Shown piece after piece: positions 3,099 to 59,218 of a stretch of DNA of 64,000 nt. How positions within the stretch are numbered: position 1 is the stretch's first letter; every line of letters begins with the position of its first letter. Source of the DNA: Spongospora subterranea f. sp. subterranea (lineage: Eukaryota); the NCBI GenBank assembly GCA_049724395.1, contig JAUGWO010000102.1, positions 248,001 through 312,000 on the forward strand. The letters are read 5' to 3'. Both the position numbers and the translations under genes were made by a program. Below the pieces are notes generated by a model. It saw only the letters and a list, made by a program, of their open reading frames with translations, was not told where the DNA came from and searched no databases.

Positions 3099-4667
3099 TC
3101 AACAGTGATCTCGTTGAATTCTGGGTTGTTTCTGAGATCGACATCCGGCAGCTGGTCTGGGGATTTCTGAAGAAAAGTGGGAACCAGGGCAGTAACGCGA
3201 GAAAAGCGCCCGCGCTATTTCGGCCTTGTGGTCCATGTCCATACTGAATCCCGACTCAATCGTCGATGTCAGTACTTCCGGCACCTGAATCTAAAAGCGA
3301 GTTCAGTCATAAATGGCTTGGAATGCACAAATTTCCTAATTACTAGATTGGAATGCAAACTCTCACTATAGAACAGAGTTTTTTGACGATGTTCCTCAAC
3401 GACAAGCAAATCGAGAGCTGCTCTAAGATCAGATTCTGGATTCTCTTCCTGAATAGAAGACAAATACAGTATGTAGCATCCTTTTGGCGCGCACCCCGTT
3501 GTTTCATCTAACTATGGAGAAGTTGGATTCGCTAACTCAATTAAGGTGGATATCGAACCTGTAGAACCCGAACGGAATGTTTTCTTAGCATGGGAGGCAT
3601 CATGATCAAAGAAACAGATGACGTATTTTTGGAAGGAGCTGTTGTAATACATATACAACGTGATAAAACTCCAGATGACTTGATACCGCTGGAATCAGGC
3701 AACTCAATTGACCCATCAACAAAGATATCACATTCGATGGCTTGTTGCGACTCCGAAAGAATCACTGTTTTCGGACACTTTGCGGTCACATCTGACCGAA
3801 GCAGATAAATACCCCCGTTCACAGCACTAAGCCGGCAAAATGCTTGAGGAATATCACCAGTTCCATAAACAGGATATAATAATGCTCCAGAGTCAAATTT
3901 TCCAAGTGACTTGATGAACTTCCTAACCAGCAGTATACCATCTGCAGTTTTCAGTTCTGCAGAGTCAGCAAAACACAGCGAGTACAGAACAATATCTTGA
4001 AGTGCTTTCGAAAGCTGGAGCTCCTCCAAATATAGCGCAAAAGGGAGATCGCGGAACCTTTGACGCAATTCATTATCATAGGAGTTGCTTGGCGCTTGGG
4101 AATGCGTGTCATCGCCCAATGCTATATGCATCAATTTCATGAATCGCCTCTTCTCAGATCGGTCAAGAAAACCGCATTGAAATATATCGGCCTTCGAGAT
4201 TGGAACCGCAGTGACAGCACCATCCAGAACAGTGTAATAATTGTTGATGCACTGAAACGATAGATAATGAAAACTTTTGCTTTTGACTATGTCATCGACA
4301 AGATTCGATGTTGAGAATATCACTTTGGGTTGTAGATCGAATAAGAATTGTTGACCAGGATCTTCTCCATATGACGAATAAATGGCACCTTTGTCAAGCA
4401 AAGACTTATAAAACTGGGCCCAAGGAAGCGTTGCACATTCCCCGCCATAGTATTCATTTGGATCGCAATGAAGCACCGACTTTCCAGCAATACTCAGGCC
4501 TCTAAACCGGAGGCAAAAATGGTCAATGCGAACCAATTGTCAAAAGGCCGACCACTAACTCACGCCGCAAGCATGGATTGCCATAGTCCAGTGCCGACAA
4601 TGACGGCGTCGAACCGATCCTGGTCTAGAATATCATGACAATGAGTTGTTGGCCCCTCCTCAATCAT
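3099..4667 (-). CDS. CHM: Rab escort protein (REP/choroideremia, GDI superfamily)
   Basis: FDAVIVGTGL, VLHCDPNEYYGG, FLFDLQPK, VPISKADIF, LYPVYGTGDIPQAFCRLSAVNGGIYLL; C-terminal ARALFSRYCP is typical of REP rather than GDI. Confidence 0.88.
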
Positions 4668-5153: not shown

Positions 5154-7180
5154 ATGGCTGTGGCCGATTCCGTCCCTGATCGATTGATGACCGTCGCCGA
5201 AGAGATAGTATTCCGGGTCCATTCGGCCTATACCGACGACGTTGACGGACTGGTGGCGATCGGCAAATCCCTAGGGATAACTATCGAGGTTCCTCGTTCG
5301 AAGGTATCGGTTATGCTCGTGGGGAACCATTCCGCCGGCAAGAGCTCGTTCATCAACTGGTATCGCCATCGCCCATCGTCCGGCTATCGGTGGACTGATC
5401 GTTGCCGCTAGGTACATTGGCGAATACGTTCAGGTAATCGCATATGCGACACCCCCTGGCACAGACGTGGACGGTTGAGTGTGTTGATCTGAACCCAGTT
5501 GGAAAGCGTGGCGATGGAGACGAACTCGTTCACGTTCGTATCGCACGGGAAACGAAGGGAGACGTTCAAGGTCGGTGATGATTACTCGCTGCTCCAGAGC
5601 CGATCTGATATCTCACGATCGATCTCGGTATAATTCAGGGCCGTGCCACCATCAAACACAAACCTTGGCTGGCCGATATCGAATCATTCCCTGGCGCTAT
5701 CGACAACCTGTCCACACAAATCTCCAGCTCCAGGCACAACCTGTTCGCCATGTGCGATTTCGTGGATACGCCGGGTCTGACTGATGGATCGCTGAAATAT
5801 CCATATCCTGGTTGGGCGGTTGCTGGAACATGGGCCTCAATCCCGCTCGACTCACCATTTGTGTTTGGACAGTCAATGAGATACTGGAATGGCTGGGGAT
5901 TCGTGCCGATCTGATTCTGGTGTTCTTCGATCCTCATGGCCAAGCACTGTGTGCTCGGACGTAATACTGGACCTCCCTGGTCGATCGGCGGACCTGTTTC
6001 TGACAGCGATCTCTCTGCAGGATGAATGTGGTCCATCGACTCAACAAGAACTGCAAACCCAAGACGCACTACTTCCTGACGATGGCGGATAAGGTCTGGT
6101 CACTTGGCGAGCATCCGCGCCCAACCACGCCCTGACCCCGATCACGATCGCAGATCTCCTCAGAGAAGGAGCGATCCAAGGTCATCCTGCAGGTCGCACA
6201 GTCGCTGAGTCACGCTCAGACGCGTCCGTCGACAATGTCGGGAAATCATCATCCCGACGCCGTTGCCGTTGACCACCAGGGCCAAGAGACCTGGCTGGGA
6301 GAGCACGCCCTTCGGTAAAATGATGATCGCCCCTCTCCACTCAATCGAAATTTCCCTGTCTGACGACCGTGTGTTTTGTTGCCAGTGTTCGCCCGATCTA
6401 TATCCCAGAGAAGGTGCAGCACGGCGCCGACCTCAGCCCCGATTTCAATCGAATCGACGAGGTCCTGGAGCTGATCGCCGACGCCGTCAACCAGAACGTG
6501 CAGAATCACATCGAACGCTTTGAGAACGACAGCCTGATCCTGCTGGATTCGGTCAACAAATGTCTGACCAGGTAGATCGCCGTGCCCGCCCTCCACCGTC
6601 ATTGACGACTGATTACAAGATACGAATGGCGTCGGAGAATCAACGACGTAATCGGGTCGTTTCGGATGTTGTGTTTGATATTGACCTGGTCTATTCCCAT
6701 GATCCTATCGCTATATCTGTTCTACATGATTCACCCCCTGGTTCTCCCCAAGTAAGTGGTGCTGCCCCCATTGCCTCTCGCGCCTCAAAAACGCTGTTCG
6801 CTGACCGGTTGCGGGTGCCCGAATCGAACAGGGAATTCCTGGGTCTGCCTTGGGTTCAGAAGATGTTGCAGACGGCGATGGCATCGTTTACATGGGTCGC
6901 TGAACAATGGCCCGAACTGATTCAGATCGAGCGAGCGGTTGTTTTCCGGCATTGCGTTCTCGTTTTCCTGATCGCGGCCGCCGCAGCCGTTGCGTTCGGG
7001 AAACTGATCGTGGGCAACATCTCGCCACGTGACGCCAGAAGACTCTACACTCACCAGGCGCAGCTTCGCAACAACGTCGAAGGTACTGAACCAGCGTTTG
7101 CCGTTTGATGATCGCTAACGATGGGAGAACAGTTCAGGTGCCGTTGCACTGGAAGACCTTCTTCTCAGATTCCACCTATG
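5154..7180 (+). CDS. EHD/dynamin-like P-loop GTPase with C-terminal hydrophobic segments, multi-exon
   Basis: G1 MLVGNHSAGKSSFINWY, G3 DFVDTPGL, hydrophobic C-terminal stretch (HCVLVFLIAAAAAVAFG). 3' end approximate. Confidence 0.75.
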
Positions 7181-7241
7181 AATAAACACACGAGTTCAGT
7201 AAAACAGGATCGAGTGCCCGGTACCTGATTCATAGCGCCAA

Positions 7242-8025
7242 ATGGATGAAGGCGATCCGGTCGTGGGCGAATCGTTCGAGAACGCGTACGTGAAGGACAC
7301 GAAACGGTGCCTGCTGCGGTTGGAGAACGCGGCGAACACGGGGATCGGGGAGATTGTCGAAGGGATATCGGAGCTGAGTGTATTGTGCTGGCTGGGCGGC
7401 CCAGCGGTGCAGATCCCGGTTGGGACCAGCCACATCGTCGACAGGTTCCACGAATGGCTCCAGGGCAGGGCGCTTCCCATCGACAACCTCACCGACGATC
7501 AGGTCTTCGCCCTCCATCGCGCCGTTCTCGAGGTGGTCTCGATCGTCTGCCGACGGTCGAAACCGATCCAGGATCCGCCTGAAGCAGTCGCTGTGGATCG
7601 AGGTTCTGGTAAAGTTCTTGAGTCACCCGAGGGATAAACTGGTACAATTCCTGTCCAAGACGACATGATCTGCCAAACTCAACATTGTGTGTTTCGCTAG
7701 CGACAATTGGCGGTGACGTGTTTATTGTTCATAATCATCAACAATACCGCCAATCAGTTCGCCATCATGAAGGTTCATGGGATTCAGGTGGGAAGCGGCG
7801 CCGCTCTCGATTGTTGTTGTGGTTATTGACCTGGGGGGCGGTACTTTGGCCAACGAACAGGGGGCCATCGAGAATATCTGCAATCTGGATTGGTCGCTGC
7901 ACGTGTCGAACCACGCCGACGACCTGCTGAACCTGTTGGATCTAGCCCAGCACGCCATCCGGAAGGACGGGGCCGGGAACGAATCCCTGCTCATCCTCAT
8001 GCAGCAATTATCACGACAGGGATGA
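7242..8025 (+). CDS. Armadillo-like helical protein resembling ARMH2; needs a 1-nt frameshift at ~7575
   Basis: Reconstructed LCWLGG...VLEVVSIVCRRSKPIQD/RLKQSLWIEVLVKFL...LAVTCLLFIIINN...NLDWSLHVSNHADDLLNLL parallels my recollection of ARMH2 (LAYTGG...CWCYLNPVSQKRAK...ENWSGWTENFAEVL). Two GT-AG introns splice in phase once one C is removed. Confidence 0.55.
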
Positions 8026-8537
8026 TCATGACCATCATCATTAGACCCGTCATTTCAATTACAACGATTGTATAAAGGGTAAAATCGCCCATAAAAAAAC
8101 GGCCGATTGTCGTCGCCTGCTATTTAATAAAAAAAAACAACGTGTTTCATCACATTCGTGCTCTGCAATAGATAAGATCGGGCTGTTTCTCCCTGAACGA
8201 CTCCTAGAATTGCAAACAATTCCTGCATAGGGAGATGGGCAAATTCACAGTCCGAGAAGGGAAAACGGATGATGATCTGATATGGTTTCGGAAACAACAG
8301 CACCATTGGTGAGATTGAGGGGAAATATTGCTAATCGATGGAGTAGGAATAGATATTTTCACAGCTCATAGCGAGAATAAGATCGTGTACAAATTACGAT
8401 TGGTGCAGAATCCCAACCCCCATATTACGTTGGTTTTGGGTGTCGGGTTGCAATCGTGTGGGAGAACAAAGTGGGGGCGCTAGGCTTCCCCTGGATTATC
8501 TGCCAAGATTGACGAGCTCAGGCGCGTTTCGGGCGGT

Positions 8538-11381
<2,844 letters not shown>

Positions 11382-11638
11382 AACACAAAATGGTGAAATA
11401 CATAACCACATTATCCCAGTCGTATTCTGCAGAGTCGCTCAAAGAGAGGTCATCGGCACCTGGAAGAAAAACTGACGTTTCGAGAAAGCGTCACCGTTCT
11501 TCGGCGAGGAAACCGGTGTCGTTGTTGAGTCAGATCGACATTCACTTATGGGGACGATTATTCCAGAGATGAATGGCGTTATTATTGGTAGTTTGGGCTG
11601 ATGGCGATTGTATAAGAACATATTGCAGACCCCCACCG

Positions 11639-13123
11639 TTATAATGGGGGATCGTCCGGCGAACTCCTCTTGACCGGCTCTGGTGGTAGACACCTCCTCA
11701 GCAGAACCTGGACCACTCTGTCGAACACGTCCTCGACATTAGCCCGGTTCGTGTTGCACGTGGTGTAGATCGTGATGGGATTCGTGAGTCGATTGGCGCA
11801 TCGCAGCTCGAACAGACCCCGGATGAACGCCAGGCCGGCGTCATAGTCACTTCCGCCCGTGTATTCAGGAAACGTCTTGGACAGGCCGGAATACTGCAGC
11901 TTTTCGCGGAACAGGTCGGCCTTGTTCAGAAACAGGAAAATCGGCACCTTATCGAAATACGCTGAAAAAGCAACGATGGTGTTGACCACACCGTCTCTAT
12001 TCTGAGAGGAATTCACCTTACGGGAGGAGCACACTTCCTCGAACAGCTTCAGCGATTCGCACATTCTGTTGACAGTGTCGTCCTCGAACAGCATCTGATC
12101 GTACTCGCTCAGCGCCGCGACAAAAATGACGGTCGTGACTTGTTCGAAGCAATGCAGCCATCTTGATTGGCAGAACAGCAGACGATGAGTTTAGGCGGAC
12201 GCACGCTGCCAGGGTTGTGGGGACTTACTTGCGTCGTTCGCTCCGTTGCCCGCCCACGTCCACTATCTTGAACAGGGTCGAGCTTTTCCCTTTGAACTCT
12301 TTCTCAGTAATGCCAGTGGACGATACGCGAACCTGATCGGATTCAGCGCTTAGGGGGGAGGGGGTTGGTCGGCGTTCGGCACCGCTTACCATGAGGATAT
12401 CCTGTTTGGAAGGAATATAGCGATCGGAGACGATGGCGCTGATCTTGTTCAGGAAATAGGCTGTGGATTCCTGAGCGTGGAACAGATGCCGATGCTTGTA
12501 TGCGTTCTGCACGCCGGGATCGGCCCAGAACACTTTCATCATCTCCCCAACCTGAACAGGAACCAGGAGATCAGATGAGGAACGGTACGAACACTGAACG
12601 GACCAGTTTCGACGGTTTCAACGTTTTCTTATCAGCCTGTAGGAAAAACCTCTTGGCTTCGAAACTGTTGGGACGCATTCGAGTGTCTAATCCTGGATCA
12701 AGGCTATCGGTGGCGAAAAGAATGCACTGTACAATTAGCAGACACATTTGGCAAATGTGGGCGATCAACGAATCGCCGACCAGTTACTGACGTTGACGCC
12801 TTCGACAACATTGAGAAAGATAGCGCGTTTGAATTCCAGACGCTCTTTGATGGTCATTCCCGCCCCATATATGGACACCAACTGTTTGAACAACGTCGAT
12901 TTACCCGAATCTCCTAGGAAATGCGCAGAGCGCTTCAACAACAACGTATCACGCAAATGGGGAAATAATGGCTATCAGAACCTGGACCAAGGAGCAATAT
13001 CCGGAAAGTGGTATCAACTCGCTGCCGATCCAAGACGAATTCTTTGTCAAATAATCGAGAGCGGGCCAGCTGTTCGTGAGAATTCACCTTTCTGGAACCG
13101 CAAAACCCAAAGCATCGTGACAT
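11639..13123 (-). CDS. Heterotrimeric G protein alpha subunit (atypical), multi-exon
   Basis: ILLLGPG/DSGKST across an intron, YIPSKQDIL, RVSSTG, DVGGQRSERRKW, NRMCESLKLF, FLNKADLF, TTCNTN. Confidence 0.93.
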
Positions 13124-13363: not shown

Positions 13364-15845
13364 TTAAGACTTTGAAGGGCTTTCTGCAGTGATACCTTCT
13401 TCGGCCAACCAATTTCGCCAATTCCTTGCGAATTCCTTAGGAAGACTAGGAGGAAATTCTGAGAGAACTGCTTTGACGATTATCGATTCATCGACATTCT
13501 CTGGGAGAGTATACTGATCGGGAATGACTTTAAGGACTGAACTTAACCGAGCACAGCAAACCTACAATAGAGTGCCCAGGACATTGGCGATGTATTCTGG
13601 AGTTAAACGCTTGGCAGTGCTGGCGAAATCGACTGGGTAAATTGTAAGAGATCCGGGTAACAACTTTACAAGGGCGGAACTTTACTCTTGCCAATAAATT
13701 TTCTGCCTCAAGAACGCTGGTACCCGACGAAACAGTTTCTAGCCATTCTTCAAATAGATCCATTCTAACAGAAGAATATATGCAAGAAATGACGTCCACA
13801 TGATCTGTAAACAACGTAAGCGATTTGCAGATTCGAAATGACTAGGACTATTTGGTTACCTGAGCGCCATTTCACGTCCATGAAAGGAACTTGACTTTTT
13901 AATAGTTTTAATGTGTAAACAACCAGATCAATCTGGGGTATGTGAAGCAGTTTAATTAAAAGCTCCTGAGGGTAAAAATTAAAAGAGCTTTGTAATTGAA
14001 GCAAAACGGCTTACAGGCGCACGAAATTTCACCAAAGAACGGATTTGTCGAGGTGCCCGTTTGGATACTTTTTGAAGGATCCTTAACATGTTAGAATACG
14101 CCGAATACTTTCTCCAACAAGGATGTCCTTGGCAGGCTATGATGGAAAAAAGCATTCAATGAGATTAGACACAGTCTCACGCTGTAGTTTGAAAAAATAC
14201 GTTTAGCTTCAGCGATCAACTGTAGCATTGACACTCTATCGCTGGATCGCCACATGTTATCGTCAAAGGGACTACGATGGAAATAATGTTATAGTTAAAT
14301 AAGGTTGGTGATTGTCTTGAATACCTCAAATGTGGAATATCGTTTCGTTTTGTTAACGAAGCTGAAAGGTTTTGATTAAGAAACTTCAAGATCAGTATCA
14401 ACGCATTTTTGTCTTGCAACAAGCATAACATTGTAGAAAACTGCAGCGGATGCCCACGTCGGAAGATTTTCAGTAATTTGAGAAGGATAAATGCAATCGT
14501 CTTGGTGAGGATCTCCGTATGCCTTGATCTTTCAACAGTTTCCGTTAGGTCTTGGATATCTTCCCAAATCATGAACTCTGCCGACGTGTTAACCATTTGA
14601 GCGCTGCGGCGAACGTTGGGCGCAACCGAGAGAAGCAATTTAAGTATACCCACAATATACTGAGTGCATTTCAATGAGCAACATATATACACAGATGCCA
14701 GAATCATATACCTGCCTAAGCTGAGGTTGCATTACCCCATATAATTTGCTAGGCCCAGTTGTGTTATTAGGAAGATAATGTTCTTCGAACAGGTTTTGTT
14801 TCAAAATATCTTCTGTATCTGAATAACCAATATGGATATATTTCCTTGCCATTTCAGCTCGTTGCACCAAAGCTTTCGGAGTACGAACAAAGGTCACCAG
14901 CTCGATTCCGTTTTCATGAGCTGAGTTCGGAATGCACAAAATCGGCCCAAAGTTGTCACTAATATGTTGACATACACGGAAAACATCGCTCCGTCGGGAC
15001 TTTGGGGTTTTCACAAACTTTTCATCATCAAACTGAGATTTCCCTACGCCACCGAACTCCATAAGAATCATTAACCGCACCAGCAATAATATCTTTTTTA
15101 GGGGAAACAAATCAGCGTCATCTGATGCGACAAGATCCAAACAAAAAGCGATGCCGTTTTGGCCATTGAACACATTTCCGGCAAAGAACTCGCGAACCTA
15201 AAACAACGCTCACTTTAGAGTGTGGTTTTTTAACCGACGTGGTAAAACCTGTGTGTCATCTGAATGCAGAATCAGAATCATCAGCGTCATGTTCAGGCAC
15301 AGGCGAGATTCTTTTGTTAGTTTTGCAGAAGTTGACGAGCATTTGGCGCCAGATTCTGATAACTGTAAATTCCTGATTGCTTTCGCGGCTTTACAGAAAG
15401 CGGTGATGACAACGGGGAGTAATCCAGCACGAAGCATTCCCAACGAAAATTCTTTGGATAAACTAATACGCTGCTCAGATGAACTAGGGCAAGGCAAAAC
15501 GCCGCCGACCATGCACAAGCAAATAATTTCTGCGATTCTTATTCTTTCCTTGGAAGTTTTTAATTCGTCAACTAGAAGTTGAGTTAATCGAGTCGACGCT
15601 GTCAGAAAATCGAGCCCGGAAGGCGAACCGCAATCGTGGATTGCCTGGCGAAACTCGAACAGCTCAACATACTCCGAAAGAGAAAATATTTCGCTCAGCT
15701 CATTGAGAAGCGAATCCGTATCGCTTCTGTCGAATAAATTATCGCTTCCTGGCTTGACGGCGAAAAATGTAGCTGACAACCGCCTGCTGGTCCTATTGGG
15801 CAGCTTCATCGTCAGACGGCCCGCTGATTTTTCTGACGATGCCAT
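13364..15845 (-). CDS. STRIP1: Striatin-interacting protein (STRIP1/2, FAM40/Far11; STRIPAK)
   Basis: FPLKKILLL...FGG, ILKLLLSVAP, RHTEILTKTIAFILLKLLKIF, LILKFLNQN, YTLKLLKSQVPF...WR, C-terminal LPKEFARNWRNWLAEE. Confidence 0.85.
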
Positions 15846-16247
15846 TGTTCATGAGAGGTCGGCGATATCCACTTCAGCTGGATTCTCTTCCGCTAAATCC
15901 AATGAGGCTCTACGCTCCATTATGACATACAGTGACCCACTTTCAACAAGCGGAACATACTGTACACAGTACACACACACGCTCACACATGAGTCCTGCC
16001 TGACTGATGAGTGGTGGCCCGGAGTCATCAAAGGGGGCTGCGTACCACGCTGGACAAAACACTCGAAAACAGTACATTTGAGAGATTTGTAAAATCTCAA
16101 CTAAGGTCGTGTCCACTCAAAAATAGGTATATTGCCATGGAGATTTCTCCAAGTACCCATTTTTTTCTCTAAGGAGAAAAATAGCTGCGGTTGTATGATG
16201 AAGTAGCTACAAGGTCGATCGTGGATTTCTTCCGGGGTACCTGTAGC

Positions 16248-16982
16248 CATTTGTCGGAAGGATGGCTACGAGAGGTGATCGTCGCCATACCGCTGTGGCC
16301 AAGTTCAGAAAGCAGTTGTTAGTACGGCGTCTCCTAATCAGCGCATGATTTAGCGGCTCAGAGCTACGTTGTCGGCGATGAACCGCTTGAATAGCGAATA
16401 CATCAACCTTCCTGACGCTGATGAATTTATGTACAAAATGGACGTGAGTCGATGTAGGTCTCGTATGGCATCACGTCATTTACAGTATCACAATTGTTCA
16501 AAGGTTGCCTTACCCAGCTCACAAGTCGATGTGAGCTCAAAGCCATGTAAACCCACTGGCAAAACAGAGCAATCTGTTCGATGGACCCCCAACGCGACTC
16601 AATGTCTGATTGACGAGCTGGCGAAAACGAATCGCAACCCGATTTTTAAGTCTGAAAAGGACAAGATCAAGTTGCTGGTTGGACCGAAATCATGAAAGGA
16701 CTTGCCAGGGCAGGCCATTCTGCTTACGAAACAATTGTGATGCTGTAAAGGACGTGATGCCATACGAGACCTACATCGACGGCGTCCATTTTGTACATAA
16801 ATTCATTAATGTCCGGAAGGTTGATATTTTTCGCGATCCAAGCGGTTCATCGCGACAACGTAGCCCTGAACCCGCTAAATCATGCGCTGATTAAGAGACG
16901 CCGTACTCTAACAACTGCTCTCTGAACTTGGCCACAGCGGTCTTGCAACGATCACCTCTCGTAGCCATCCTTTCGACAAATG
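16248..16982. repeat. Long imperfect inverted repeat: arms 16248-16498 and 16730-16982, ~230-nt spacer
   Basis: catttgtcggaaggatggctacgagaggtgatcg...cagtatcacaattgtt is the reverse complement of aacaattgtgatgctg...cgatcacctctcgtagccatcctttcgacaaatg, with scattered mismatches and bulges. Confidence 0.95.
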
Positions 16983-17069
16983 TTGTTTTTTATTTCAAAC
17001 GAAACAACGGCTCGTCATGCGTTGATGCTCAACGAAGTGCAGCAGTTTTTTTTTCTAATAACTAGATTA

Positions 17070-18453
17070 ATGACTCTTCGTGTTGTACAGGCACCTTGCT
17101 GGCTTGTGCACCTCTCTATTACGCTAATGTTCGTCATGGTGATATAACCTATAGTTCTTGTAGAGAATGGCCAGCTGCCAGATTTTATGCCACAGTTCTG
17201 CATCCACGACGTCTAACTGACCATAACGCCGCGTTTTTGGACGATGGCGATATTGTTTGCAACAAGCCCACTGAAGAGATGTTGTCGGACGCAATCGAAA
17301 GGGAACCTTCAATCCAGCATGAAACTGATCTCACCCAGGGGCTTTCATCGGGCCAAAATTCCTCGAGCTAGACAAATCCATCATGGCCAGGAACACGCCG
17401 TCAAAATACACAGCGGCACCACATTGTTGACGGTAGTGTAGAGCACTCACATTCAAGAGACATGTTCCGTTTTCTATCGCCACTGGTTTTCGAGGATCAC
17501 CTCACAGTTTGGACAAAGAATGATTGCGACATCAACAATCATAGAGCCGAATTTATACAAAATTTCTTGCTGGATGCATGAGGCAAGCAGACCCTTTCTA
17601 GCAAATTGACCATCATCAAGTTACATTGGACGACCACAAATATGCGGATCAGTCTTATCCCGAATTTTTATCGTGATTATCGTGTGAATGAATCACGAAT
17701 CTGAGTGTTCATACTCTGAAGAACAGGCAGAATGGATCTGCAAATGTCTGCGTCGCCCCATCACCGACCGCAGTTAGCAATCGATACGAGTAAAGGCGAA
17801 TACCTGATGCGGATGCCGTTATCGTCATTGGCCTATAATGTTTACAAGACTAAACGCTACTATTAACGAGGATACTCCCAAGATTGGATAAGTATTTCGA
17901 ACGGTAATCTTTGACCGGTACGGTGAAGGTATCTTGGGAAATGGTCCGACGAGGAAAATAACGCCCTTTGACCCGAGTGACCTACGACTGGTTTGACCCA
18001 AGTGATTCGCGCGTTGTCGCAATATATCCTCCAAACTAAAAAAGGACCATGATGGAGCAAGTTAATTCTGGAGAACCGTATGAAGGATTAATTATTACAC
18101 CAACGCTAAGAGTTGCCGAATCGATGCTCCTCTTTGGTGAACACCTGAATGTTTTAATGCCAGAAATGGGTGCAGAACAACTATCGGCATATGATGAGGA
18201 ACTATACACCAGGATAACCGGCGGGTCATATTATGGTGACGCCGAGATAGAGGTGGACGAGCAATTCCCTGAACGGCCGGCAATCGATGCTCCAGGTGTG
18301 ATGCCTAGAGAACGCGGTGAAAGCGAATCCTGTCCCTATGGTGATGATCAAGAAACGATTCGCACTGATTATTCCCCTGTTGAAGGAAGGTCGATGACCA
18401 TTCACGAACTTGTTTATAACGCGATGCCCGAGTGTTTTATTACCGAGATCTGA
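17070..18453 (+). pseudogene. Degraded intronless coding sequence (possible secreted protein relic); intact 134-aa acidic tail at 18049-18453
   Basis: Protein-like stretches broken by stops and frameshifts lead into the 18049 ORF; hydrophobic signal-peptide-like start at ~17070 if one frameshift is allowed. Confidence 0.35.
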
Positions 18454-18553
18454 CAGCAAAGGATAGATTCAACACCATATTAAGCTGGACCAGGTCGGAA
18501 AAATGGTTGTGTTTTGTAAAAACAATAAAAGGACGTTTGACAAGACAGAACTG

Positions 18554-19304
18554 TCACCCTCTCCTCTTATCAGAAACTGATACGCGTTCCCTTTCAGAAA
18601 TCTGCTCCAATAACCAAAGAATAGCTGGCTTGAGGCCACTTCCGGTTATTGCTACGACATCGACAACTTGATATGGTCTAGTATCATCCAATGATAACAT
18701 GTCTGATATCTGATCCGACGGCAAGGCACCGGGCAAATCTTGCTTATTGGCCAGAATGAGTACTGGAACACCAACCACGTCCTTGTGTTCTAGAACGGAC
18801 AACAGTTCCTGACGAGCTTCCGATAATCGCTCGACATCTGCAGAATCGACAACGTAGATAATCGCGTTGGCTTCGGAATAGTATTTATCCCAGATCACCT
18901 AGAAATGAAATTGAAAATGTAATCTGACCGTGATAGATATCAGATAATGACCCGTATTCCAGATTGACCACCGACATCCCAAATAGTTACCCGACATGCG
19001 TCAATGTCCAAACGAACAACTGTCGGGTCGCGTTTGAGAAACCCAGACCCCAGCGAATCACAACACATGTTTACGGTTGAACCCAATTGTTGGAGTAGTT
19101 GTGATATTTTCATTCACCTTCATGTTCTTATCGAAAATCATCCGGAACTGCTCGAGACAGGTGCTTTTCCCGGCATTATCTAATCCTAAAACCAACAGAT
19201 CAGATCCACCTAGTGTGCCTTGGTGGAGGTCTACCAATGATCAAAAGTTGATACTCTGGGCGGTCGAACATGATGCATTTAATGTGATTTATGATGGCGA
19301 ACAT
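18554..19304 (-). CDS. ARFRP1: ARF-related protein 1 (Arf-family GTPase)
   Basis: MFAIINHIKCIMFDRPEYQLLIIG/LDNAGKSTCLEQ, PTIGFN, WDVGGQ, IWDKYYSEANAIIYVVDS, LANKQD; aromatic residue 2 and no myristoyl Gly, as in ARFRP1. Confidence 0.88.
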
Positions 19305-19757
19305 CGTCAAAATCGCTCTTGTTGGGTAAAGGGGGAATTACAGCATCGGCATTTCGACCCTTGAGCCGAATAATATCCACGGACTCCACCACTGGCTCTG
19401 GGATTGTCGTTGAAGATGGAGTCGAGACTACATAGAGATGGCGTGCTGCGTCCTGCACAGTGTTTCTAGGAGGCGCTGATGAGTACTTTGGACACCCTGG
19501 AGTCCCTGTCGCTCCAAGTCCTGTCCAATATTCTGGCCATTTCAAACGAATCGCTGGAATGGCTTGCTCAAAAGGCATGTTCTTATCACCGCTTCTTCAG
19601 CTGGTTGGTTGAAAGGCCCAGATGGGTTATGGGTATTTTTTTACAGTAGGGGGTATCAAACCGACGAATTTCCCTGATGTATGTATACGCCCACGAGAAT
19701 CGCAAGCTTTTTACTCTTCACGTACGTGATGAACAGGTGAAAGGGCTGCCCAAGTTT

Positions 19758-19904
19758 GAGGTCGCCATCGAAAATGCGTCTAAACCAGGTTTTCGAAACT
19801 TCAGTACAGGCAGAACAAATTGAGAACAAAACTACTACGCGTTTGTTCTACCTGTAATGATGTTTTGAGAACCTGGGAGAGGAGCATCAAAACCGAGTGA
19901 CCTC
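19758..19904 (+). ncRNA. Candidate pre-miRNA-like stem-loop
   Basis: 19785-19820 pairs with 19841-19876 (36 positions, 3 G-U, 3 mismatches, 20-nt loop); outer gaggtcgc/gtgacctc pairing. No expression evidence. Confidence 0.45.
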
Positions 19905-20229
19905 TAAAGTCAATGTTTCGAAATTGTTTGCCATGGAGTTTCGATAACAATGTAGTACATCTCACTTGATTAACACTTTACATACGAACAAATCAGTACC
20001 TTCAGCAGGTGCAGTCTATCATCTTTTGGAGTACTTGCTAAGTGCATTACCTAGACTTAACACAGGTAAAGGCTGGTAAAGGTGACGCAGCGAAGTCAAT
20101 ACGGTGTCAAGTTCCGCCCGACTCTCAGCTACAAAACTACGATGGCAATTGGCGTTAATGTCTCAAATTTGTTGAACTTGTCAATTGCATCGTCATACTT
20201 TCGTCGCTTTAAAAAGCAATTCATACGAC

Positions 20230-20794
20230 AGCATAATGGTACCAACTAAACGGGATCTCCGCTACATGAAGCTTAATAGCCTTTTCAAAACAATCGAACT
20301 GATCGCAATAAGCAACGATCCCCCATTTTAATAGGTGGTTGACTTTGCATCTACTGGCGTTCCCAGAAAAAAACAAGAGTGTGCGTTGATAACAGATGGA
20401 TCATCACGGTCGGTATCTGAGCGTTCAAAGACTGGCGTTTGGAATTCCTAGCCCTGTGATTATCGGCCGGCATCAAACCGACTTTGATACACGCTGAATT
20501 TGACCTCTTGCAAGACGACAGCAATGACCTGTTCACATCGTCGCCACCACCTCTTTTCCTTGGTGCCAGAACTGCGACTCGCAAAGAGAAACACTTTTCT
20601 GGGGTGTCCGCTTCAGGTTCTGGTAGGATAAATTCACTGCTCCCTTCGCCGTGAATACTTTGCTTGAACGCCAGTAGATTCAACGTCAACAACCTATAAT
20701 AGTAATCGTTGCTTATTTCGATCGGCTCGATTGTTTGAACAGGTTATTGAGCTTCGTGTAGCGAACATCCTGTTTTAGTTGGTACCATTATGCT
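20230..20794. repeat. Imperfect inverted repeat: arms 20230-20362 and 20666-20794, ~300-nt spacer
   Basis: agcataatggtaccaactaaa...atctactggcgttc vs gaacgccagtagat...tttagttggtaccattatgct. Confidence 0.92.
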
Positions 20795-21166
20795 CTCATG
20801 CTGTGCACTACACGGAATACCTGTTTGGATGAGATCAGGGGTTTCGTCAGTCGCAGCCGATCTTAGATTTAATCTCGCGAGAGCTTTGGGTGAAAACTAA
20901 TTCTCCAACGGGAATGCATAGTGCATCTTTCAGGACCATGCAATCCGAAGCACATGTTAAACGATATTGCGGTTTGTTTCAAAACATTATCACATCAAGA
21001 TCGTATAGAGATCGCGAACTTTTGATCAACGAAAAGTTGGTATGTCTTACGAAAATTGCTGCAACGCAATCAAGTATCGAATCAATCTAAAGGTTTCACC
21101 AAAAAAGATGTGGGCCTTTTACACCCAAATGAAACGACTGTTAATGATATTTATTATCGATAGGTT

Positions 21167-24100
21167 TTACAAAGGATGTACACTGTCTTGATATGCAGAT
21201 TCAAAATTGAAAATGACTTCACGCTGTTCGGCAGCATTTGTAGCAGCAAGAAGATTATCGACGAAATTGGCTCGACCCGGAATAGATCCTGGGAGGCTAT
21301 ATCACCCGTGTCAACAAAAACAAAATTGAGAGATTAATACCCAACCTGTCAACAGCTTGACGAAGAAAAACTGCTGCACTAGTTTTATCAAGAGTGACAG
21401 CTGCCCTGATGACCTCAATCAAATCCCTCATTCTGTTCCGGGATAGATCTTCAAGCAAATGTCCAATCAGCTCCCTAAACATGATCGCTCCATACGTTGA
21501 AAAGATTGAAAGCACAGCGCTGGAAGAAACGCAAATATAAATATATATATTGCCTAAAGGATGCCAACTCTACCTTCTGCATTGCTCCCGAGTTCCACCA
21601 ATATCTAATAGATGCCTAATGAACATAAAAACAGCTCGAGCCGCCTCCCTATGTTGTACCCTGATGGCAATCAAGGCGCAGTGCAACGAAGATGGTAAAA
21701 ATCCGCTATTGAATGAAACTGCAGTTAGGTCGGCAATGCAGCGAGACAGAAAATTGAAGTAGTCTTCGCAGATTGTGGGATTCTCTGTTATTTGCTCAAA
21801 ACTGGTAAGTATGGACAGAGTTTTGGCAGCGATGCTGCCAAGAGCTTGAGCGAATAATTCCTGACACTCATCAACGCTGAAAAAACGAATAATCACCCCC
21901 GAGGCAGAAAATAATCACAGAAACTACGCACCTGGAAAATTCGTCGAGGCAGATGGAACAAGTGTAAATGAAGCACGACCAAGGGGCAGCAGGAAAAAGC
22001 CTGCTTAACAAAGGTAGAAGCACGGCGATTATTGGACAATCCCTCCCAGTCGCTCGCAAAGAATATTTCAAAAGACGACAGACTTTTTCCATTAACTTTT
22101 CATCGCGGACAAGGACAACGAGCATTTCTGTAAAAAAGTTATTGAAAACCTAGGGCACCAGAGGCGAAAACACATGATACCTTGCAATAAAGGCCACATA
22201 TCGTTGATGATACGAACTAGTTCATTGCATGAATCGAGATGAATACTTTTGAAAAGATGCGCTAAACGATCCAAATTAATGGAAAGTGTAGAAATATCGA
22301 TTTCCTGGCCATTTCCTAAGAGAAATAAAAATGCTTAAAACACTGACAAACGGCTTGGTATGCAACCATACGTAAAAGGCCCATTGTGGACGATAGACTT
22401 TGTAAAATGGGACTGATCAACTGCTGTAAATGACCTGGAATCGCTTCTGGAGGCCGGGAGCAGATAACGCTGCAGACACCTTCTATGATCTCACTTTGGT
22501 CGTCAAAGTCGAGACTCCCCATCGAACAATAAACCTAAGCTCCATAGAATCAGCCAAAACACAAATTCTGAAAGCAGCTACGAACCGCAATTAGCTGATT
22601 GATATCATGGGCGGCTAAATGACGCGCACAGGATTCACACACAAATTTGAACGCCATTGCAGCCGCTGACTGAGATGCAGGAATGGAAAGTCCCTCAACA
22701 ACAAAACCAAGAAGAGGGCCAATGGATTCTGGATGGGCATTAATCCAGTCCGAATATCTGTTAACGACTGAAACTCCATTGGCAAAAAACTGACTAATCG
22801 CATCTCAAACCTTCCAATAATCATCGTTGATGTATATCTGAGTACGGGATGTGAAGACATGGACAACAAATCCGCCATAACTCGCGGAAGCAGACTTTTT
22901 GACGCAGCGCTCTGAATGCAGGCTATGCATTGACTTTGACGGGCAAACCGCAAATACGCTTGGCATTACCTCTTCCCCAATTTTGATGTTCCTGGCGATT
23001 GATCTAACACTGTAAAGGCAAGCTTCCAGACGATGCCATTGGCGAGGATTTTGGCGATACTCAAGAACACATGGCTAATAACACAACAGTCAGAGACATT
23101 ACGTTAACGGCAGTGTAAACACTACTTCACCTGCATGCAGGATACCAAATGTTCCAGGCAGACTGAACTGTCACAAAAAGAAGATATGTCTAACAATGCA
23201 TCCGCTGCTTGATAGCGAAATCGTTTCTGCTCCTCATCTTGTTCTGATAGTCCATCGTAATCCGAGGGAAATTCGATCACCACTCTGATTTTGTCCATCG
23301 CAGCAAGAAATTCATTTTGATACCGTTGGCCGACAGCATTCGCTTGGTTCGCATCAGCACGAGAAAGCGCTTCCAGATTCGCTGCGAGTATGTACCTAGA
23401 TACAAGACCGCTGAATTGGTGTGTCGACACTCTATAATGGGCCAGCTGACCAAAAGTTAAACGAAAGGATCGAGAGTTCAGGATCAGGGTTAGAAGTGCA
23501 ATTGATAATCAATTGCAGCAAATCGGTCGCTTGCGGCGCTTGCTCTAATATCCAAGCAACATTCGACTCCGACAACTGAGTGAACACTTGCAGAAGTGAT
23601 CGGCATTGGCTAAAATCTTCGTCATTGACTAGTTGACAGTAATGCGGCCATAAGGAAAAAACAGCAGTGGAAAGCTAAGAAACCGGATCAGGGAGTAATC
23701 TAAGTTGATCGCGATTGCTTGTACTCACTTGCGACCGGAGGTTTTCAAGGTTATGTTGGTCAGCAAATACAATGAATGCGGTTATGACATCGCACGCCAC
23801 CTAGATCCAGAATCAACACATTACCAGTCGAGTAATACAGCTACTGACTTGAGACACATCACTGCAAGAAACAGCTTGGAAACAATCAGCAAGAATTGTC
23901 GAACTCAAAACACCGGCTTCAGGAACGGCTGCAAACGCATGCCGGACCCATGATAAAAGACAGCGTAAAACCATTCGTTGAACGCGCACGTCGTTCGATC
24001 GACGGATAAATTCTAAGGCCGCATTATTGCAGCATCGACGACAAAATCAATGTTTGAGGCAAACCTGACAAAAGAGAAAGTACTTTCGATGCGACAGAAA

Positions 24101-55539: not shown

Positions 55540-57433
55540 CTAGGTTGACGGTTGCTCAATTTTTGCAATTATTCGTTCAAAAAAATCGCATGATTTTTTC
55601 ACTTGACTGGAGAGAAATGCAAAATTGGCTGCAGTGTCACTCTGCATATTACCTTCCTTATTTTCGGAATTTTCCAGTTCATCCATGTACATGTGCAGCC
55701 TTTGGAAAAGGCTGTCGAACGCGGTAACAAGCTGTACGAATCAAATATATAATCATCACAGCGTCCCGACGTAAACTCCATACCTGCCCTATCTGATGAA
55801 CATCGTCCTCATTGATAAGATCAGGCTTGAGCTTTGATTTTTTTTGTGCAGCTTTAACAGTTCTCGACCGGATCTTGCGCCTGAAGTAAGGTTTCGAAGA
55901 GCGCAATTGCTGTTGATTTTAAGCTCATGATTATGAATTTACAAGAGGCATACCTGGATTTGCAGCTTCAAATGCGTGTTTTCTTTGCCGAGTTCGTTGA
56001 TCGAATGATTCTTTGTAGAAATTTCTCGTTTATTTCGTTTGATGGTTTTTGTCAAATCAGCGATGTCGGAAAACCCAAACGAGGACAAAAATTCTTGAAA
56101 GTCGTGGGTTAAATCTGGCGTCGTTATTTGTGGTGATGGGATGATGACCTGCAACACATTAGACTTCTTTCCAGTATCTGGCGCATAATTACTGTTTTGG
56201 TACTGGAATGTTCATGGACCGGCGCTGCACGAGCTTGAGCCCATGCACTCGGTCTCACCTGAACATTGCTCGGCACTTTGGCTGTGGCCCATTTGGCCAT
56301 CAAAGGGTCTCCATGCTAAATGCAGACATATAGCCTGTCGAATGGAATATGAACGCGTTCACTGACCTTGCTATCTTGCCTATTGACCAAAATAGATTTC
56401 AAGTGAGCGACCAATGCCACATCTAATCCAGGATTGTCATCGATGGTGATTGAGCACAGCGATTGATTGATTTGCAGCATTTCAATCAGTGCACAAATGG
56501 CGACATTTGTGAGCTGATTTGAGCTAAGATTGATATCCAGAACCCATTTGTCGTCTGTCAGAGCCTCGATCAAGCTAGGATACTCAGTAAAAGCATCACG
56601 AATTCAAATATATCTCATACCATTTAACCCCAATATCGCCAAGGCGGTTATCTTGTAAGTCCACACTCAGGACGCCCAATGTAGACATACCCGGCATTCC
56701 ATCATTGTCACGTAATCTATATTGCCATTTCGCCACATCTCGACGAATATTATGATTGGAGATTACATCGCTGAAATGAGAAGCGCTACTCTCGTTGAGC
56801 CCGCAATTGATGAAGTGCCAGTGAGTGATCTCAGATGATATTAGCTGTTGCATTATTCCTAATTCAAATATATTAGCGTTGAATATGAGCGCAAACAATA
56901 TTGATTACTGGATAACAGCCCAGAATCTAATACCACATTTCTTATAAATATCGATTTCAGTGTCTTCAATGAGCCCTTTACTATTGCAGGAATCCGCTTT
57001 GCAATACATGGAGTTACAGAATCGAATTCTACACACGTTAGTTCATGGTTACGACTTAGACCTCGGATAAGGTTTTTTGCAAGCTCATTTTCGGTTGACC
57101 GTGTCGATGACGGCAAACTATTAACACGAGCCTTTGTGTGTAGACGTTGTCGTTCTGAATTGGAGATGCGAACGACTTTGAACGTTGGTACAGCATATAA
57201 TACTTTGAATAATGATTCGGCGATAAATGCAGTGGTTGAATGGATATCGATATCAAGGGTATCTTCCCCTAGCAGTCTCATGACGGAATCAGTAACCTGC
57301 ACATGCTATGCTATCAGTGATGACAGGTTCGAAGAGCAACGCCCCCGACCTGAACGGATCGAGCATCACATTTTTGTTTGAACAGCGTCTGTTTGGCATT
57401 GTAATCTTGAAATGTCTGTAATTTAGTTGACAT
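55540..57433 (-). CDS. CEP78: Centrosomal protein 78-like LRR protein, multi-exon
   Basis: ISNHNIRRDVAKWQYRLR, LQDNRLGDIGVK/CLIEALTDDKWVLDINLSSNQLTN...LIEMLQINQSLCSITIDDNP, followed by coiled coil. Confidence 0.8.
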
Positions 57434-57892
57434 TTTATTATGAACAATGGCAGCAGTGAGAGCTCTCCTAGCCAATCCACTCAAAGAGAACAGAATTTCA
57501 GTTACTGAACACTACTGTAACTGAACAAGCGGCACACTGGGCCTTATACCTATACTGCTCTGTGAGACTGTGCCCAAGTGGGCAAGGCTGACGAGGAGAG
57601 ACAGGTTACCGGGGCTGACAGACAAGGATAAGCGGGAAAGGTGGGGTGATGGGCCCCGGTTGTTGACAATAAAACGGTGGATGGACCGGGTATTTATTTA
57701 ATGGCAGATAGGTTGTCGTCCGAAGAGGTTCATGTAATTCGACAAGTTGGTGAAGACAGCCAACAGTGAGAGACGACGCTGAGTCTGTCAGCGATTCCTG
57801 ACGAAGCATGACGCTTAGCCAATGTCGAGATCATGAAGAACATGTACGCCGACATGACTGGATTTATATCTTTTTTTTTTGTATGTACAAAA

Positions 57893-57975
57893 TTGCACGA
57901 TTATTTGCACGATTATTGTTTTGTCCAAGGTGCACTATTATGTGCACTATGTGGCGCTAATACGCACTATTGCAC
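57893..57975. repeat. Short degenerate tandem repeats (tgcacgattat / gtgcactattat)
   Basis: ttgcacgattatttgcacgattat and gtgcactattatgtgcactat directly before the 58-kb inverted repeat. Confidence 0.7.
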
Positions 57976-58443
57976 ACCTGGCGCTTGGATCAAACTCCAG
58001 AGACTGCAGCAACATCTGCTGTCCAAAAAAAGGACGAGGTATTCATAAGGATTACGGCGAGCACCAAGTCAAATGCTGGAAAAGCGCAACGGTGCCAGAG
58101 GAGTACGTCGGACATGCACCACCGGGGAGGCCCAAAAGCATAAAGCAGTGGAGCGAAAAAGGTACCAATCCGACGCGTACAAACGCGCGCGCCCGAACAC
58201 GTGTGTTCAAACGCCTGGAAGAAGTCAATTGTACGCGTAGGATTGGTACTTTTTTCGCTCCACTGCTTTATGCTTTTAAGCCTCCGCCGGTGGTGCATGT
58301 GCGACGTACTCCTCTGTCACCGTTGCGCTTTTCCAAAATTTGACTTGGTGCTCGTCGTAATCCTTATGAATGCCTCGACCCTTTTTGGACAGCAGATGTT
58401 GCTGCAGTCTCAGGAGGTTGATCCAAGCGCCAGGGTGTGCAAT
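57969..58443. repeat. Long imperfect inverted repeat: arms 57969-58182 and 58229-58443, ~46-nt loop
   Basis: attgcacacctggcgcttggatcaa...acgcgtacaa vs ttgtacgcgt...ttgatccaagcgccagggtgtgcaat. Confidence 0.96.
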
Positions 58444-58446
58444 CGC

Positions 58447-58559
58447 AACCGCCTTGGCGATATTGGGTTAAATGGTATGAGATATATTTGAATTCGTGAT
58501 GCTTTTACTGAGTATCCTAGCTTGATCGAGACAAATGGGTTCTGGATATCAATCTTAGC
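58447..58559 (+). repeat. Inverted duplicate of a CEP78 exon-intron-exon segment (source 56523-56649)
   Basis: Identical to the reverse complement of 56523-56649 except a 1-nt and a 13-nt deletion; contains the whole 46-nt intron gtatgag...tcctag. Confidence 0.95.
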
Positions 58560-59218
58560 ACATAAGGTTGCGCTTTTCCAGGATGTGGACATGCATAGGC
58601 GTACCGTATTAGAAATGATCGGTCGTGGGGTGTCTCCGGATTATGGCGTTTTAAGGCGTCGTACGTCCAAGATGCAAACGTTCGTGCAACCTCCCATGCG
58701 TAGGTACGACAGCTGGTGGTGTTACCGTCGAACAACAGATCTGGTAATTGGACGCGTCATGAAAATAAGAGACGTCCCTGTTGGAACGAGAAGATGGGTG
58801 ACGTTTGAACGCCCTATTTTCAATTAAACTTTTAGGTTTTCTTAAATCGAGGTTAATCGCCAAGCCACATTGCTATTTTACCGAGAACTGCATGAAGTTT
58901 TTTTGATGAACACGCTGCTGATGAACCCTTGATGCTGCTTGTTTACGCAAAAAAAAATCGAATTCCTGTCGTATAAACGGCAGTTATGGTTTAAACTGGG
59001 TTCTCAAAAACTTGGCGAAAAATAAGCAGCAAAAATATAACGTGATAAGCAGCGGCTCATGCTCTTCTCTCATTACGATTGCTACAGTATTACCGATCGG
59101 CCAAATGAATTTGATTGACACATGGTTGATTGTTCACTAAAGTGTACATACCCTACGATGCCCGTCTGGGTGTGTGTACACTTCATAAGACTCATGAAGT
59201 CATGAACCTCATTATCAT

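What the first reader, a model, noticed from the sequence alone, without database searches (positions are those of the whole stretch)
16248..16982. 250-bp-arm fold-back upstream of STRIP
Seen: arms 16248-16498 and 16730-16982 pair along their length with small bulges; perfect blocks include aaggatggctacgagaggtgatcgt (25), taatcagcgcatgatttagcgg (22) and gtcgatgtaggtctcgtatggcatcacgtc (30). Arm divergence argues against an assembly artefact. One frame reads protein-like (KTAVAKFREQLLEYGV; EFMYKMDAVDVGLVWHHVLYSI) and the spacer encodes VRWTPNATQCLIDEL, faintly Myb/SANT-like. Inference: inverted duplication of a gene or transposon fragment now acting as a dsRNA precursor.
Basis: partly seen in the sequence, partly recalled or inferred. 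Interest (0 to 1): 0.72.

Follow-up and report, generated by a model that had tools for sequence, protein, structure and literature searches.

The report
Spliced hairpin RNA in potato-scab protist
In the potato powdery-scab protist, a likely gene-derived 250-base stretch and its inverted copy flank a short spacer; the locus is transcribed and spliced, and likely folds into a long RNA hairpin that would be cut into silencing RNAs, a candidate source of double-stranded RNA in a group whose best-studied member lacks the usual enzyme for making it.

Summary
The fold-back is real: arms 16248-16498 and 16730-16982, 229 of 255 columns match, folding z = -37. The window is Spongospora subterranea. Contigs from two runs of one sample cover 16072-16780 and skip a 50-nt GT..AG intron (16454-16503) on the + strand, head-to-head with STRIP. 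The spliced RNA is non-coding (longest ATG frame 45 codons). There is no target-site duplication, and the window's three other long inverted repeats share no termini with it, so a plain foldback/MULE is unlikely. The arm-plus-spacer looks like the 5' end of a dead intron-containing gene; its parent was not found and the Myb/SANT hint stays weak. The relative P. brassicae has Argonaute and a Drosha-like enzyme but no RdRP, and its siRNA precursor is published as unknown. My re-count of its 435 published phased 21-nt loci finds 87 close pairs (about 9 expected), length-matched, of the same geometry as this locus. Best reading (0.55): a hairpin-RNA (siRNA precursor) locus. Not shown: small RNAs from it, a target, or RNA over the outer 200 nt of the right arm. 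A known kind of locus in a new lineage; it makes an open question testable.

The parts
16248..16498 (+). Left arm (251 nt); holds the gene-like 5' part and most of the intron
   Evidence: covered by RNA contigs in X1 and X2 up to the splice donor
16730..16982 (-). Right arm (253 nt), inverted copy of the left arm, 89.8% alike
   Evidence: RNA contigs reach only 16739 (X2) and 16780 (X1) with right-arm letters
16499..16729 (+). Spacer/loop (231 nt; about 270 nt of loop after splicing)
   Evidence: covered by RNA contigs at depth 15.9-17.7
16454..16503 (+). 50-nt GT..AG intron, spliced; fixes the + strand as the transcribed one
   Evidence: joint 16453>16504 in X1 (side 28) and X2 (side 138); six host introns in X1 are 49-55 nt
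16262..16264 (+). ATG of the likely parent reading frame, 14 nt inside the left arm
   Evidence: a related 176-nt contig matches 16223-16269 and then diverges
16335..16337 (+). TAA present in both arms; a stop in one of the two least-broken readings
16504..16695 (+). 63-codon open frame after the intron, no ATG of its own; weak Myb/SANT-like signal only
   Evidence: Pfam 0; atlas 0.78, lead only; pLDDT 55.6
16072..16780 (+). Span covered by contigs of the RNA runs (minimum transcript)
   Evidence: records 1, 2, 3, 5
15926..16071 (.). Gap between the STRIP contigs and the hairpin contigs; likely shared divergent promoter (inferred)
   Evidence: STRIP contigs reach 15882 (X1) and 15925 (X5); hairpin contig starts 16072; contigs cannot show true starts
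14216..15848 (-). STRIP/FAM40 gene, 5' part (N1221 and DUF3402); neighbour, no homology to the arms
   Evidence: spliced contigs; self-BLAST
20227..20797 (.). Second fold-back (arms about 140 nt, 83%), unrelated sequence
   Evidence: z -15
57969..58443 (.). Third fold-back (arms 214 nt, 46-nt loop), unrelated sequence
   Evidence: z -33
56520..58562 (.). Fourth inverted pair (56520-56649 / 58447-58562), 1.8 kb apart, right arm abutting the third fold-back

Best explanation
A transcribed, spliced, non-coding locus of Spongospora subterranea, likely made by inverted duplication of the 5' end of a dead gene, whose RNA likely folds into a stem of about 200 base pairs that would be cut into 21-nt silencing RNAs. 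Shown: the inverted repeat; + strand transcription from at least 16072 to 16780; removal of a host-type intron; no long ATG frame; no target-site duplication. Inferred: transcription starts at a promoter shared head-to-head with STRIP (Pol II, because it is spliced); it runs through the whole right arm; 16248-16453 pairs with 16775-16982 (188 of the first 205 nt paired in the predicted fold); the organism's two-RNase-III Drosha-like protein dices the stem in phase; Argonaute carries the products to transcripts of the parent family (a host gene or a transposon gene elsewhere in the genome), not to STRIP. This needs no RNA-dependent RNA polymerase.
For: Arms and fold. Organism: a window ORF is 100% identical over 95% of its length to a UniRef S. 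subterranea protein. Splicing in two runs of one sample, in runs that also splice six host introns of 49-55 nt. Longest ATG frame in the spliced form 45 codons, shuffled median 51; no synonymous bias between arms, 3 synonymous against 10 non-synonymous codon differences. [quoted passage not shown] In P. brassicae the Drosha-like protein cuts long dsRNA to 21 nt in vitro, RdRP and Dicer are absent, sRNA loci are mainly intergenic and the dsRNA source is stated as unknown (PMC13547706). Re-count of that paper's Table S6: 87 adjacent pairs with gap <= 600 nt among 435 phased loci (164 loci), random placement mean 9.3, max 21 in 2000; length ratio >= 0.95 in 20 of 87 against 4.2 by shuffling (0 of 20000 reach it) and 12 of 289 distant neighbours; median member 308 nt, median gap 159 nt. 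Seven of 240 fold-back precursor rows of Table S8 bridge both members of such a pair, two of them 798 and 713 nt long with 236-nt gaps, against 735 and 231 here. Three more long inverted repeats of unrelated sequence lie in this 64-kb window.
Against: No small-RNA data for this organism could be laid; only assembled contigs were offered. No contig carries right-arm letters beyond 16780, and left-arm depth (20.5, 17.7) is not double the spacer's (15.9, 17.7), so right-arm reads are not simply collapsed on the left arm; if the RNA ends near 16780, the spliced form has almost no stem. The splice evidence is one sample of one study; the lower-depth runs X5, X9, X13, X14 show no hairpin transcript. 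No sign of selection for pairing: only 4 of 12 transition mismatches give G-U on the + strand (p 0.39). No parent or target was found. The paired-locus count is from another species, cannot tell inverted from direct repeats without its DNA (only 7 of 87 pairs have a bridging fold-back), and the overlap of precursors and phased loci is partly circular because both are called from the same reads. RdRP absence is reported for P. brassicae only.
Confidence: 0.55

Rival explanations
1. A neutral relic: a pseudogene that suffered a local inverted duplication is still transcribed from the STRIP promoter region, but the RNA stops early or yields little small RNA, and nothing is regulated.
For: No contig cover of 16781-16982; low depth, 16-20 against about 230 for STRIP in the same run (contig depth is only a rough guide); 10% arm divergence without bias to G-U; splicing removes the partner of the inner 45 bp of the right arm.
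Against: Contig assembly prunes tips and bubbles at inverted repeats: the X1 contig folds onto left-arm letters exactly at the shared 30-nt block, so the missing cover is weak evidence. Four long inverted repeats in 64 kb, and the paired geometry of phased loci in P. brassicae, fit a pathway that processes such loci whether or not each is selected.
Confidence: 0.27
2. A transposon relic: a non-autonomous foldback/MULE-like element with long terminal inverted repeats, or a broken piece of a PIF/Harbinger-type Myb-like gene. Any small RNA would be transposon control.
For: Long arms round a short core are the shape of such elements (own knowledge). The spacer peptide's nearest atlas clusters are Myb/SANT-like (PF13873, PF12776; 0.76-0.78), a fold that Harbinger ORF1 proteins carry (own knowledge). 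The public S. subterranea protein set left out transposon-masked transcripts (PMC4471660), so a transposon parent would be missed.
Against: No flush target-site duplication; best within 6 nt is 3 nt, the modal chance value (455 of 1000 random pairs). No shared termini or homology among the four inverted repeats. The inner end of the arms falls inside an intron and the arms hold an ATG and exon-like sequence, unlike terminal repeats. A related contig continues to match outside the arm (16223-16247), so the arm end is not an element end.
Confidence: 0.13
3. A cis element for STRIP: the fold-back acts at DNA level (cruciform) or through local chromatin on the adjoining promoter.
For: It lies about 400 nt upstream of the STRIP reading frame, head-to-head.
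Against: No homology to STRIP; STRIP is well covered in all four runs; a 231-nt spacer and 10% divergence disfavour cruciforms (own knowledge); closeness to a gene is expected anywhere in so compact a genome.
Confidence: 0.04
4. An assembly artefact (fold-back chimera).
For: Inverted repeats are often mis-assembled (10.1101/2021.08.05.454923, passage); one base of the left arm differs from the RNA contigs.
Against: 26 differing columns between the arms; an independent RNA contig runs from the spacer 51 nt into the right arm with right-arm letters.
Confidence: 0.01

Closest known systems
Palindromic siRNA loci of budding yeast Naumovozyma castellii (10.1101/2019.12.12.873604, passages)
   Same: Genomic inverted repeats give hairpin transcripts in a lineage without RdRP and with a non-canonical RNase III; there they yield 74.1% of siRNA reads.
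   Different: Shown there by small-RNA sequencing and genetics, not here; 22-23 nt products there, 21 nt expected here; this locus carries a spliced intron and gene-like anatomy.
Drosophila hairpin RNAs such as Nmy and Tmy (10.1101/2021.08.05.454923, passages; PMC8728187, passages)
   Same: A gene copy turned into a long inverted repeat, transcribed, proposed to silence its parent family in trans.
   Different: Nmy is a retroposed copy with near-perfect arms, processed by Dicer-2/AGO2, with known targets. Here the intron is kept (DNA-level duplication), arms are 90% alike, the relative has no Dicer, and no target is known.
P. brassicae palindromic 'miRNA' precursors and PHAS21 loci (PMC13547706, Fig. 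2G legend, Tables S6 and S8)
   Same: Same family of organisms; intergenic fold-backs up to about 1 kb (27 of 240 rows >= 500 nt); paired loci of the same size as these arms.
   Different: Described as miRNA loci and 'phasiRNA-like' loci; the sections read do not link the phased loci to long hairpins or to dead genes and call the siRNA precursor unknown.
Foldback / MULE / MITE non-autonomous elements (recalled)
   Same: Long inverted arms round a short core.
   Different: No target-site duplication, no shared termini among neighbours, arm ends inside gene parts.

Membership tests
Hairpin-RNA (hp-siRNA / palindromic siRNA) locus | Long genomic inverted repeat, well beyond miRNA size, that folds as one stem | tested here: met
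   251/253-nt arms, 89.8%, z -37; below LIRBase's 400-nt arm filter
Hairpin-RNA (hp-siRNA / palindromic siRNA) locus | Transcribed as a spliced, Pol II-type RNA | tested here: met
   50-nt GT..AG joint in two runs of one sample; poly(A) and cap not seen
Hairpin-RNA (hp-siRNA / palindromic siRNA) locus | One transcript spans both arms | tested here: inconclusive
   contigs reach only 51 nt into the right arm; contigs are pruned at inverted repeats
Hairpin-RNA (hp-siRNA / palindromic siRNA) locus | Non-coding | tested here: met
   longest ATG frame 45 codons, shuffled median 51; 3 synonymous, 10 non-synonymous differences
Hairpin-RNA (hp-siRNA / palindromic siRNA) locus | Phased 21-nt RNAs from both arms, dependent on the RNase III and loaded in Argonaute | not testable with these tools
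   no small-RNA or raw-read run offered; machinery reported for the species
Hairpin-RNA (hp-siRNA / palindromic siRNA) locus | A homologous target silenced in trans | tested here: inconclusive
   no parent protein; one 176-nt related contig at depth 6.1 in X5 and X13, probably one data set; no genome held
Non-autonomous TIR/foldback transposon (MULE, MITE, FB) | Target-site duplication at the arm ends | tested here: not met
   none flush; best 3 nt, chance level
Non-autonomous TIR/foldback transposon (MULE, MITE, FB) | Many genomic copies sharing both termini | not testable with these tools
   no genome; none within the 64-kb window; metagenome scans 0 and 1 chance hit
Myb/SANT-like domain (parent protein) | Profile match to a Myb/SANT/MADF family | tested here: not met
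   Pfam 0 families at E <= 1 and <= 10; atlas 0.75-0.78 only
Myb/SANT-like domain (parent protein) | Three-helix fold | tested here: inconclusive
   single-sequence model, pLDDT 55.6, two helices; the peptide is cut short
Known Rfam RNA family | Match at gathering score | tested here: not met
   0 matches in the whole window

The most novel reading that the evidence does not exclude
Plasmodiophorids, which lack RdRP and Dicer as far as tested, make most of their endogenous siRNA from hundreds of dispersed long fold-backs, each born by inverting part of a gene or transposon beside itself and read by Pol II; this spliced locus is one of them, and the published 'phasiRNA-like' loci of P. brassicae are largely the arms of such hairpins. 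Each hairpin would be an off-the-shelf silencer of its parent family, diced by a Drosha-like enzyme alone.
Probability: 0.45. Interest if true: 0.8.

Novelty: new member of a known kind. Interest (0 to 1): 0.6.

Why it matters
A 2026 study found working RNA silencing in the clubroot organism without RdRP or Dicer and left the source of its double-stranded RNA open. This locus gives a concrete candidate in the sister pathogen of potato, with strand and splice site known, and the re-count of that study's own table gives a genome-wide prediction that can be checked in an afternoon with the P. brassicae assembly. If right, it names the natural substrate of an unusual Drosha-like enzyme, points to the gene families these parasites keep silenced, and informs RNA-based crop protection against two hard-to-control root diseases.

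Tried and rejected
No whole genome is held, so copy number and the parent could not be searched. Parent search with the 113-aa frame 16354-16692: 0 hits among 56 candidates of 199-2000 aa, 0 at E <= 0.001 among 1.84 billion representatives, 0 in viral contigs. These blanks are weak: the STRIP fragment also found nothing among longer proteins, and three other window ORFs are not in the collection as exact sequences. Pfam: 0 for all hairpin frames tried. Rfam 0. Metagenome pattern scans: 0 and one 26-nt match in a 61% GC contig with no further likeness, taken as chance. An extra intron that I first guessed near 16322 is not spliced: one contig runs unbroken over 16221-16455. The parent frame cannot be fixed: two of 32 indel choices give equally few stops. 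The X1 contig's tail 16781-16801 carries left-arm letters and ends at the mirror of its own start; I read it as a graph fold at the 30-nt shared block, not as gene conversion or as cover of the right arm. Lack of cover over 16781-16982, and in the shallow runs, is not taken as absence. Rhizosphere runs X9-X12 hold only small shares; only X9 was laid. The structure model was too poor for a fold search. Earlier scan notes by place and sequence: none. A paper id recalled for the 2009 budding-yeast RNAi study was not held; that study is not cited as read.

Full report
Observation. As RNA it folds at -504.9 kcal/mol against -236.5 +/- 7.2 for 20 shuffles, z -37. The quoted 25-, 22- and 30-nt perfect blocks are present. 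STRIP lies on the - strand with its N1221 domain at 15210-15845. The two arm peptides quoted as one frame are in two frames.

Organism and setting. An ORF at 3544-4539 is 100% identical over 95% of its length to a UniRef protein of Spongospora subterranea, the plasmodiophorid of potato powdery scab. The window has three more long inverted repeats: 20227-20797 (z -15), 57969-58443 (z -33) and 56520-56649/58447-58562. The four share no sequence and no termini, and none has a target-site duplication beyond chance (best 3-4 nt within 6 nt of the ends; 746 of 1000 random pairs give 3 or 4).

Transcription. Sixteen runs were listed, all as assembled contigs, none as raw or small-RNA reads; I laid six of them. 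In X1, which splices six host introns of 49-55 nt in 14500-21500, three contigs cover 16072-16236, 16221-16455 and 16426-16453 joined to 16504-16801; in X2, the same sample, one contig covers 16316-16453 joined to 16504-16739. The skipped 50 nt begin GT and end AG on the + strand, so the RNA runs away from STRIP, whose contigs reach 15882-15925. Both runs lack one G at 16374, as the right arm does. The X1 contig has right-arm letters to 16780 and then left-arm letters, ending at the mirror position of its own start; this is what a 31-letter graph does at a shared 30-nt block, so it does not show the outer right arm. No contig carries right-arm letters over 16781-16982, and left-arm depth is not twice the spacer's. 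The shallower runs X5, X9, X13 and X14 show no hairpin transcript. No DNA run was available to exclude a 50-nt deletion in that isolate, but size and ends match the host introns.

Origin. The left arm plus spacer reads like the start of a spliced gene: ATG at 16262, the intron, then 63 open codons. Each arm has its own small indels, and a TAA at 16335-16337 is in both. The frame cannot be fixed uniquely (two of 32 indel choices leave one stop), and the arms differ by 3 synonymous and 10 non-synonymous codons in the first of these, so neither arm shows protein-level selection since the duplication. The spliced RNA's longest ATG frame is 45 codons against a shuffled median of 51. The intron is present in both arms, so the duplication was at DNA level, and the inner arm boundary falls 5 nt before the acceptor. 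A 176-nt contig in X5 and X13 (identical figures, probably one data set) matches 16223-16269 across the arm's outer end and diverges after the first codons: a weak hint of a related gene. The parent protein was not found; the same database also missed STRIP, so this is weak. Myb/SANT: Pfam 0; atlas neighbours are Myb/SANT-like at 0.75-0.78, under the 0.9 lead threshold, though the spacer peptide's recognition score is 2507, above the 2300 that 9 in 100 shuffled proteins reach.

Mechanism. After splicing, 16248-16453 would pair with 16775-16982; 188 of the first 205 nt are paired in the predicted fold. [quoted passage not shown] A 2026 study of P. brassicae (PMC13547706; I read the abstract, sections 2.2-2.4, the Discussion, term passages, Tables S1-S8 and the start of S9, and searched the second supplement; figures not visible) reports 21-nt phased small RNAs mainly from intergenic loci, two AGOs, a Drosha-like enzyme that cuts long dsRNA to 21 nt, no Dicer or RdRP, one palindromic locus as a miRNA example, and says the dsRNA source for siRNAs is unknown. 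Eighty-seven adjacent pairs lie within 600 nt (164 loci); random placement gives 9.3, at most 21 in 2000 trials (contig lengths approximated from the last locus). Members match in length: ratio >= 0.95 in 20 of 87 against 4.2 by shuffling (0 of 20000) and 12 of 289 distant neighbours; >= 0.8 in 43 of 87 against 18.3. Median member 308 nt, median gap 159 nt. Of the 240 precursor rows of Table S8, 55 overlap a phased locus (null 3.3; partly circular, as both come from the same reads), 24 of the 48 single overlaps are centred on the locus, and 7 bridge both members of a pair, two with 798 and 713 nt and 236-nt gaps. That is the geometry of this locus (735 nt, 231-nt gap). Limits: another species, a few pairs are multi-copy repeats and not independent, and direct repeats with shared reads would also give matched lengths.

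Against. No small RNA, no target and no full-length transcript are shown. Only 4 of 12 transition mismatches keep a G-U pair on the transcribed strand, so there is no sign of selection for pairing. The RNA evidence is one sample. A neutral transcribed relic therefore keeps 0.27, a transposon relic 0.13; the latter overlaps with the best reading if the parent proves to be a transposon gene.

Comparison. It works like the palindromic loci that give 74.1% of siRNA reads in RdRP-less N. castellii (10.1101/2019.12.12.873604, passages) and like Drosophila Nmy/Tmy (10.1101/2021.08.05.454923, passages; PMC8728187, passages). Membership is met for structure, splicing and non-coding state, open for span and small RNAs. 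In the held library, searches for Spongospora with small RNA and hairpin (2 papers), P. brassicae with inverted repeats and small RNA (1 paper), plasmodiophorid with hairpin, siRNA and phased and two genome searches listed nothing on such loci in S. subterranea; these were listings only, most subscription papers are not held, and the genome papers of this species were not read. PMC13746701 (passages) adds only that the assembly is 31.5 Mb with 27.4% repeats. An earlier AI note on P. brassicae fold-backs agrees but is not independent support.

Verdict. A real, transcribed and spliced fold-back, most likely a hairpin-RNA locus (0.55): a new member of a known kind. Its value lies in making the unknown dsRNA source of plasmodiophorid RNA silencing directly testable. 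Interest 0.6.

Noticed in passing
window 20145-20797: Second fold-back has relatives elsewhere: contigs of X5, X9 and X14 (three studies) match its left arm and upstream flank with shared differences, one ending in an A run after 20401, and a depth-535 contig in X1 partly matches the spacer at 20503-20586. A parent or sister transcript exists here, so it is a better test of trans-silencing than the first hairpin.
   Followed up: partly
window 57969-58443: Third fold-back: 214-nt arms, 199 matches in 216 columns, 46-nt loop, z -33; no RNA laid on it; Pfam blank for its frames at E <= 0.3.
   Followed up: partly
window 56520-56649 and 58447-58562: Near-identical inverted copy of a stretch beside open frames at 56.6-57.4 kb, placed right against the third fold-back: a young duplication with its likely parent 2 kb away.
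   Followed up: no
window 6000-12000: G+C rises to 53-56% against about 44% elsewhere; the stretch holds kinase-like and G-protein-like frames by eye. A distinct domain or an assembly join.
   Followed up: no
window 16374: The window has one more G than the RNA contigs of two runs: isolate difference or assembly error.
   Followed up: partly
P. brassicae Table S6/S8 of PMC13547706: 164 of 435 phased loci sit in close, length-matched pairs, and many 'miRNA' precursors are 0.5-1 kb (27 of 240 rows >= 500 nt); many may be hairpin-siRNA loci rather than miRNA genes.
   Followed up: partly
window 17074-18009: Low-depth contigs (0.5-3.6 in X1; 12-14 in X5 at 18045-18586) lie between the hairpin and the ARF-like gene; unexplained.
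   Followed up: no
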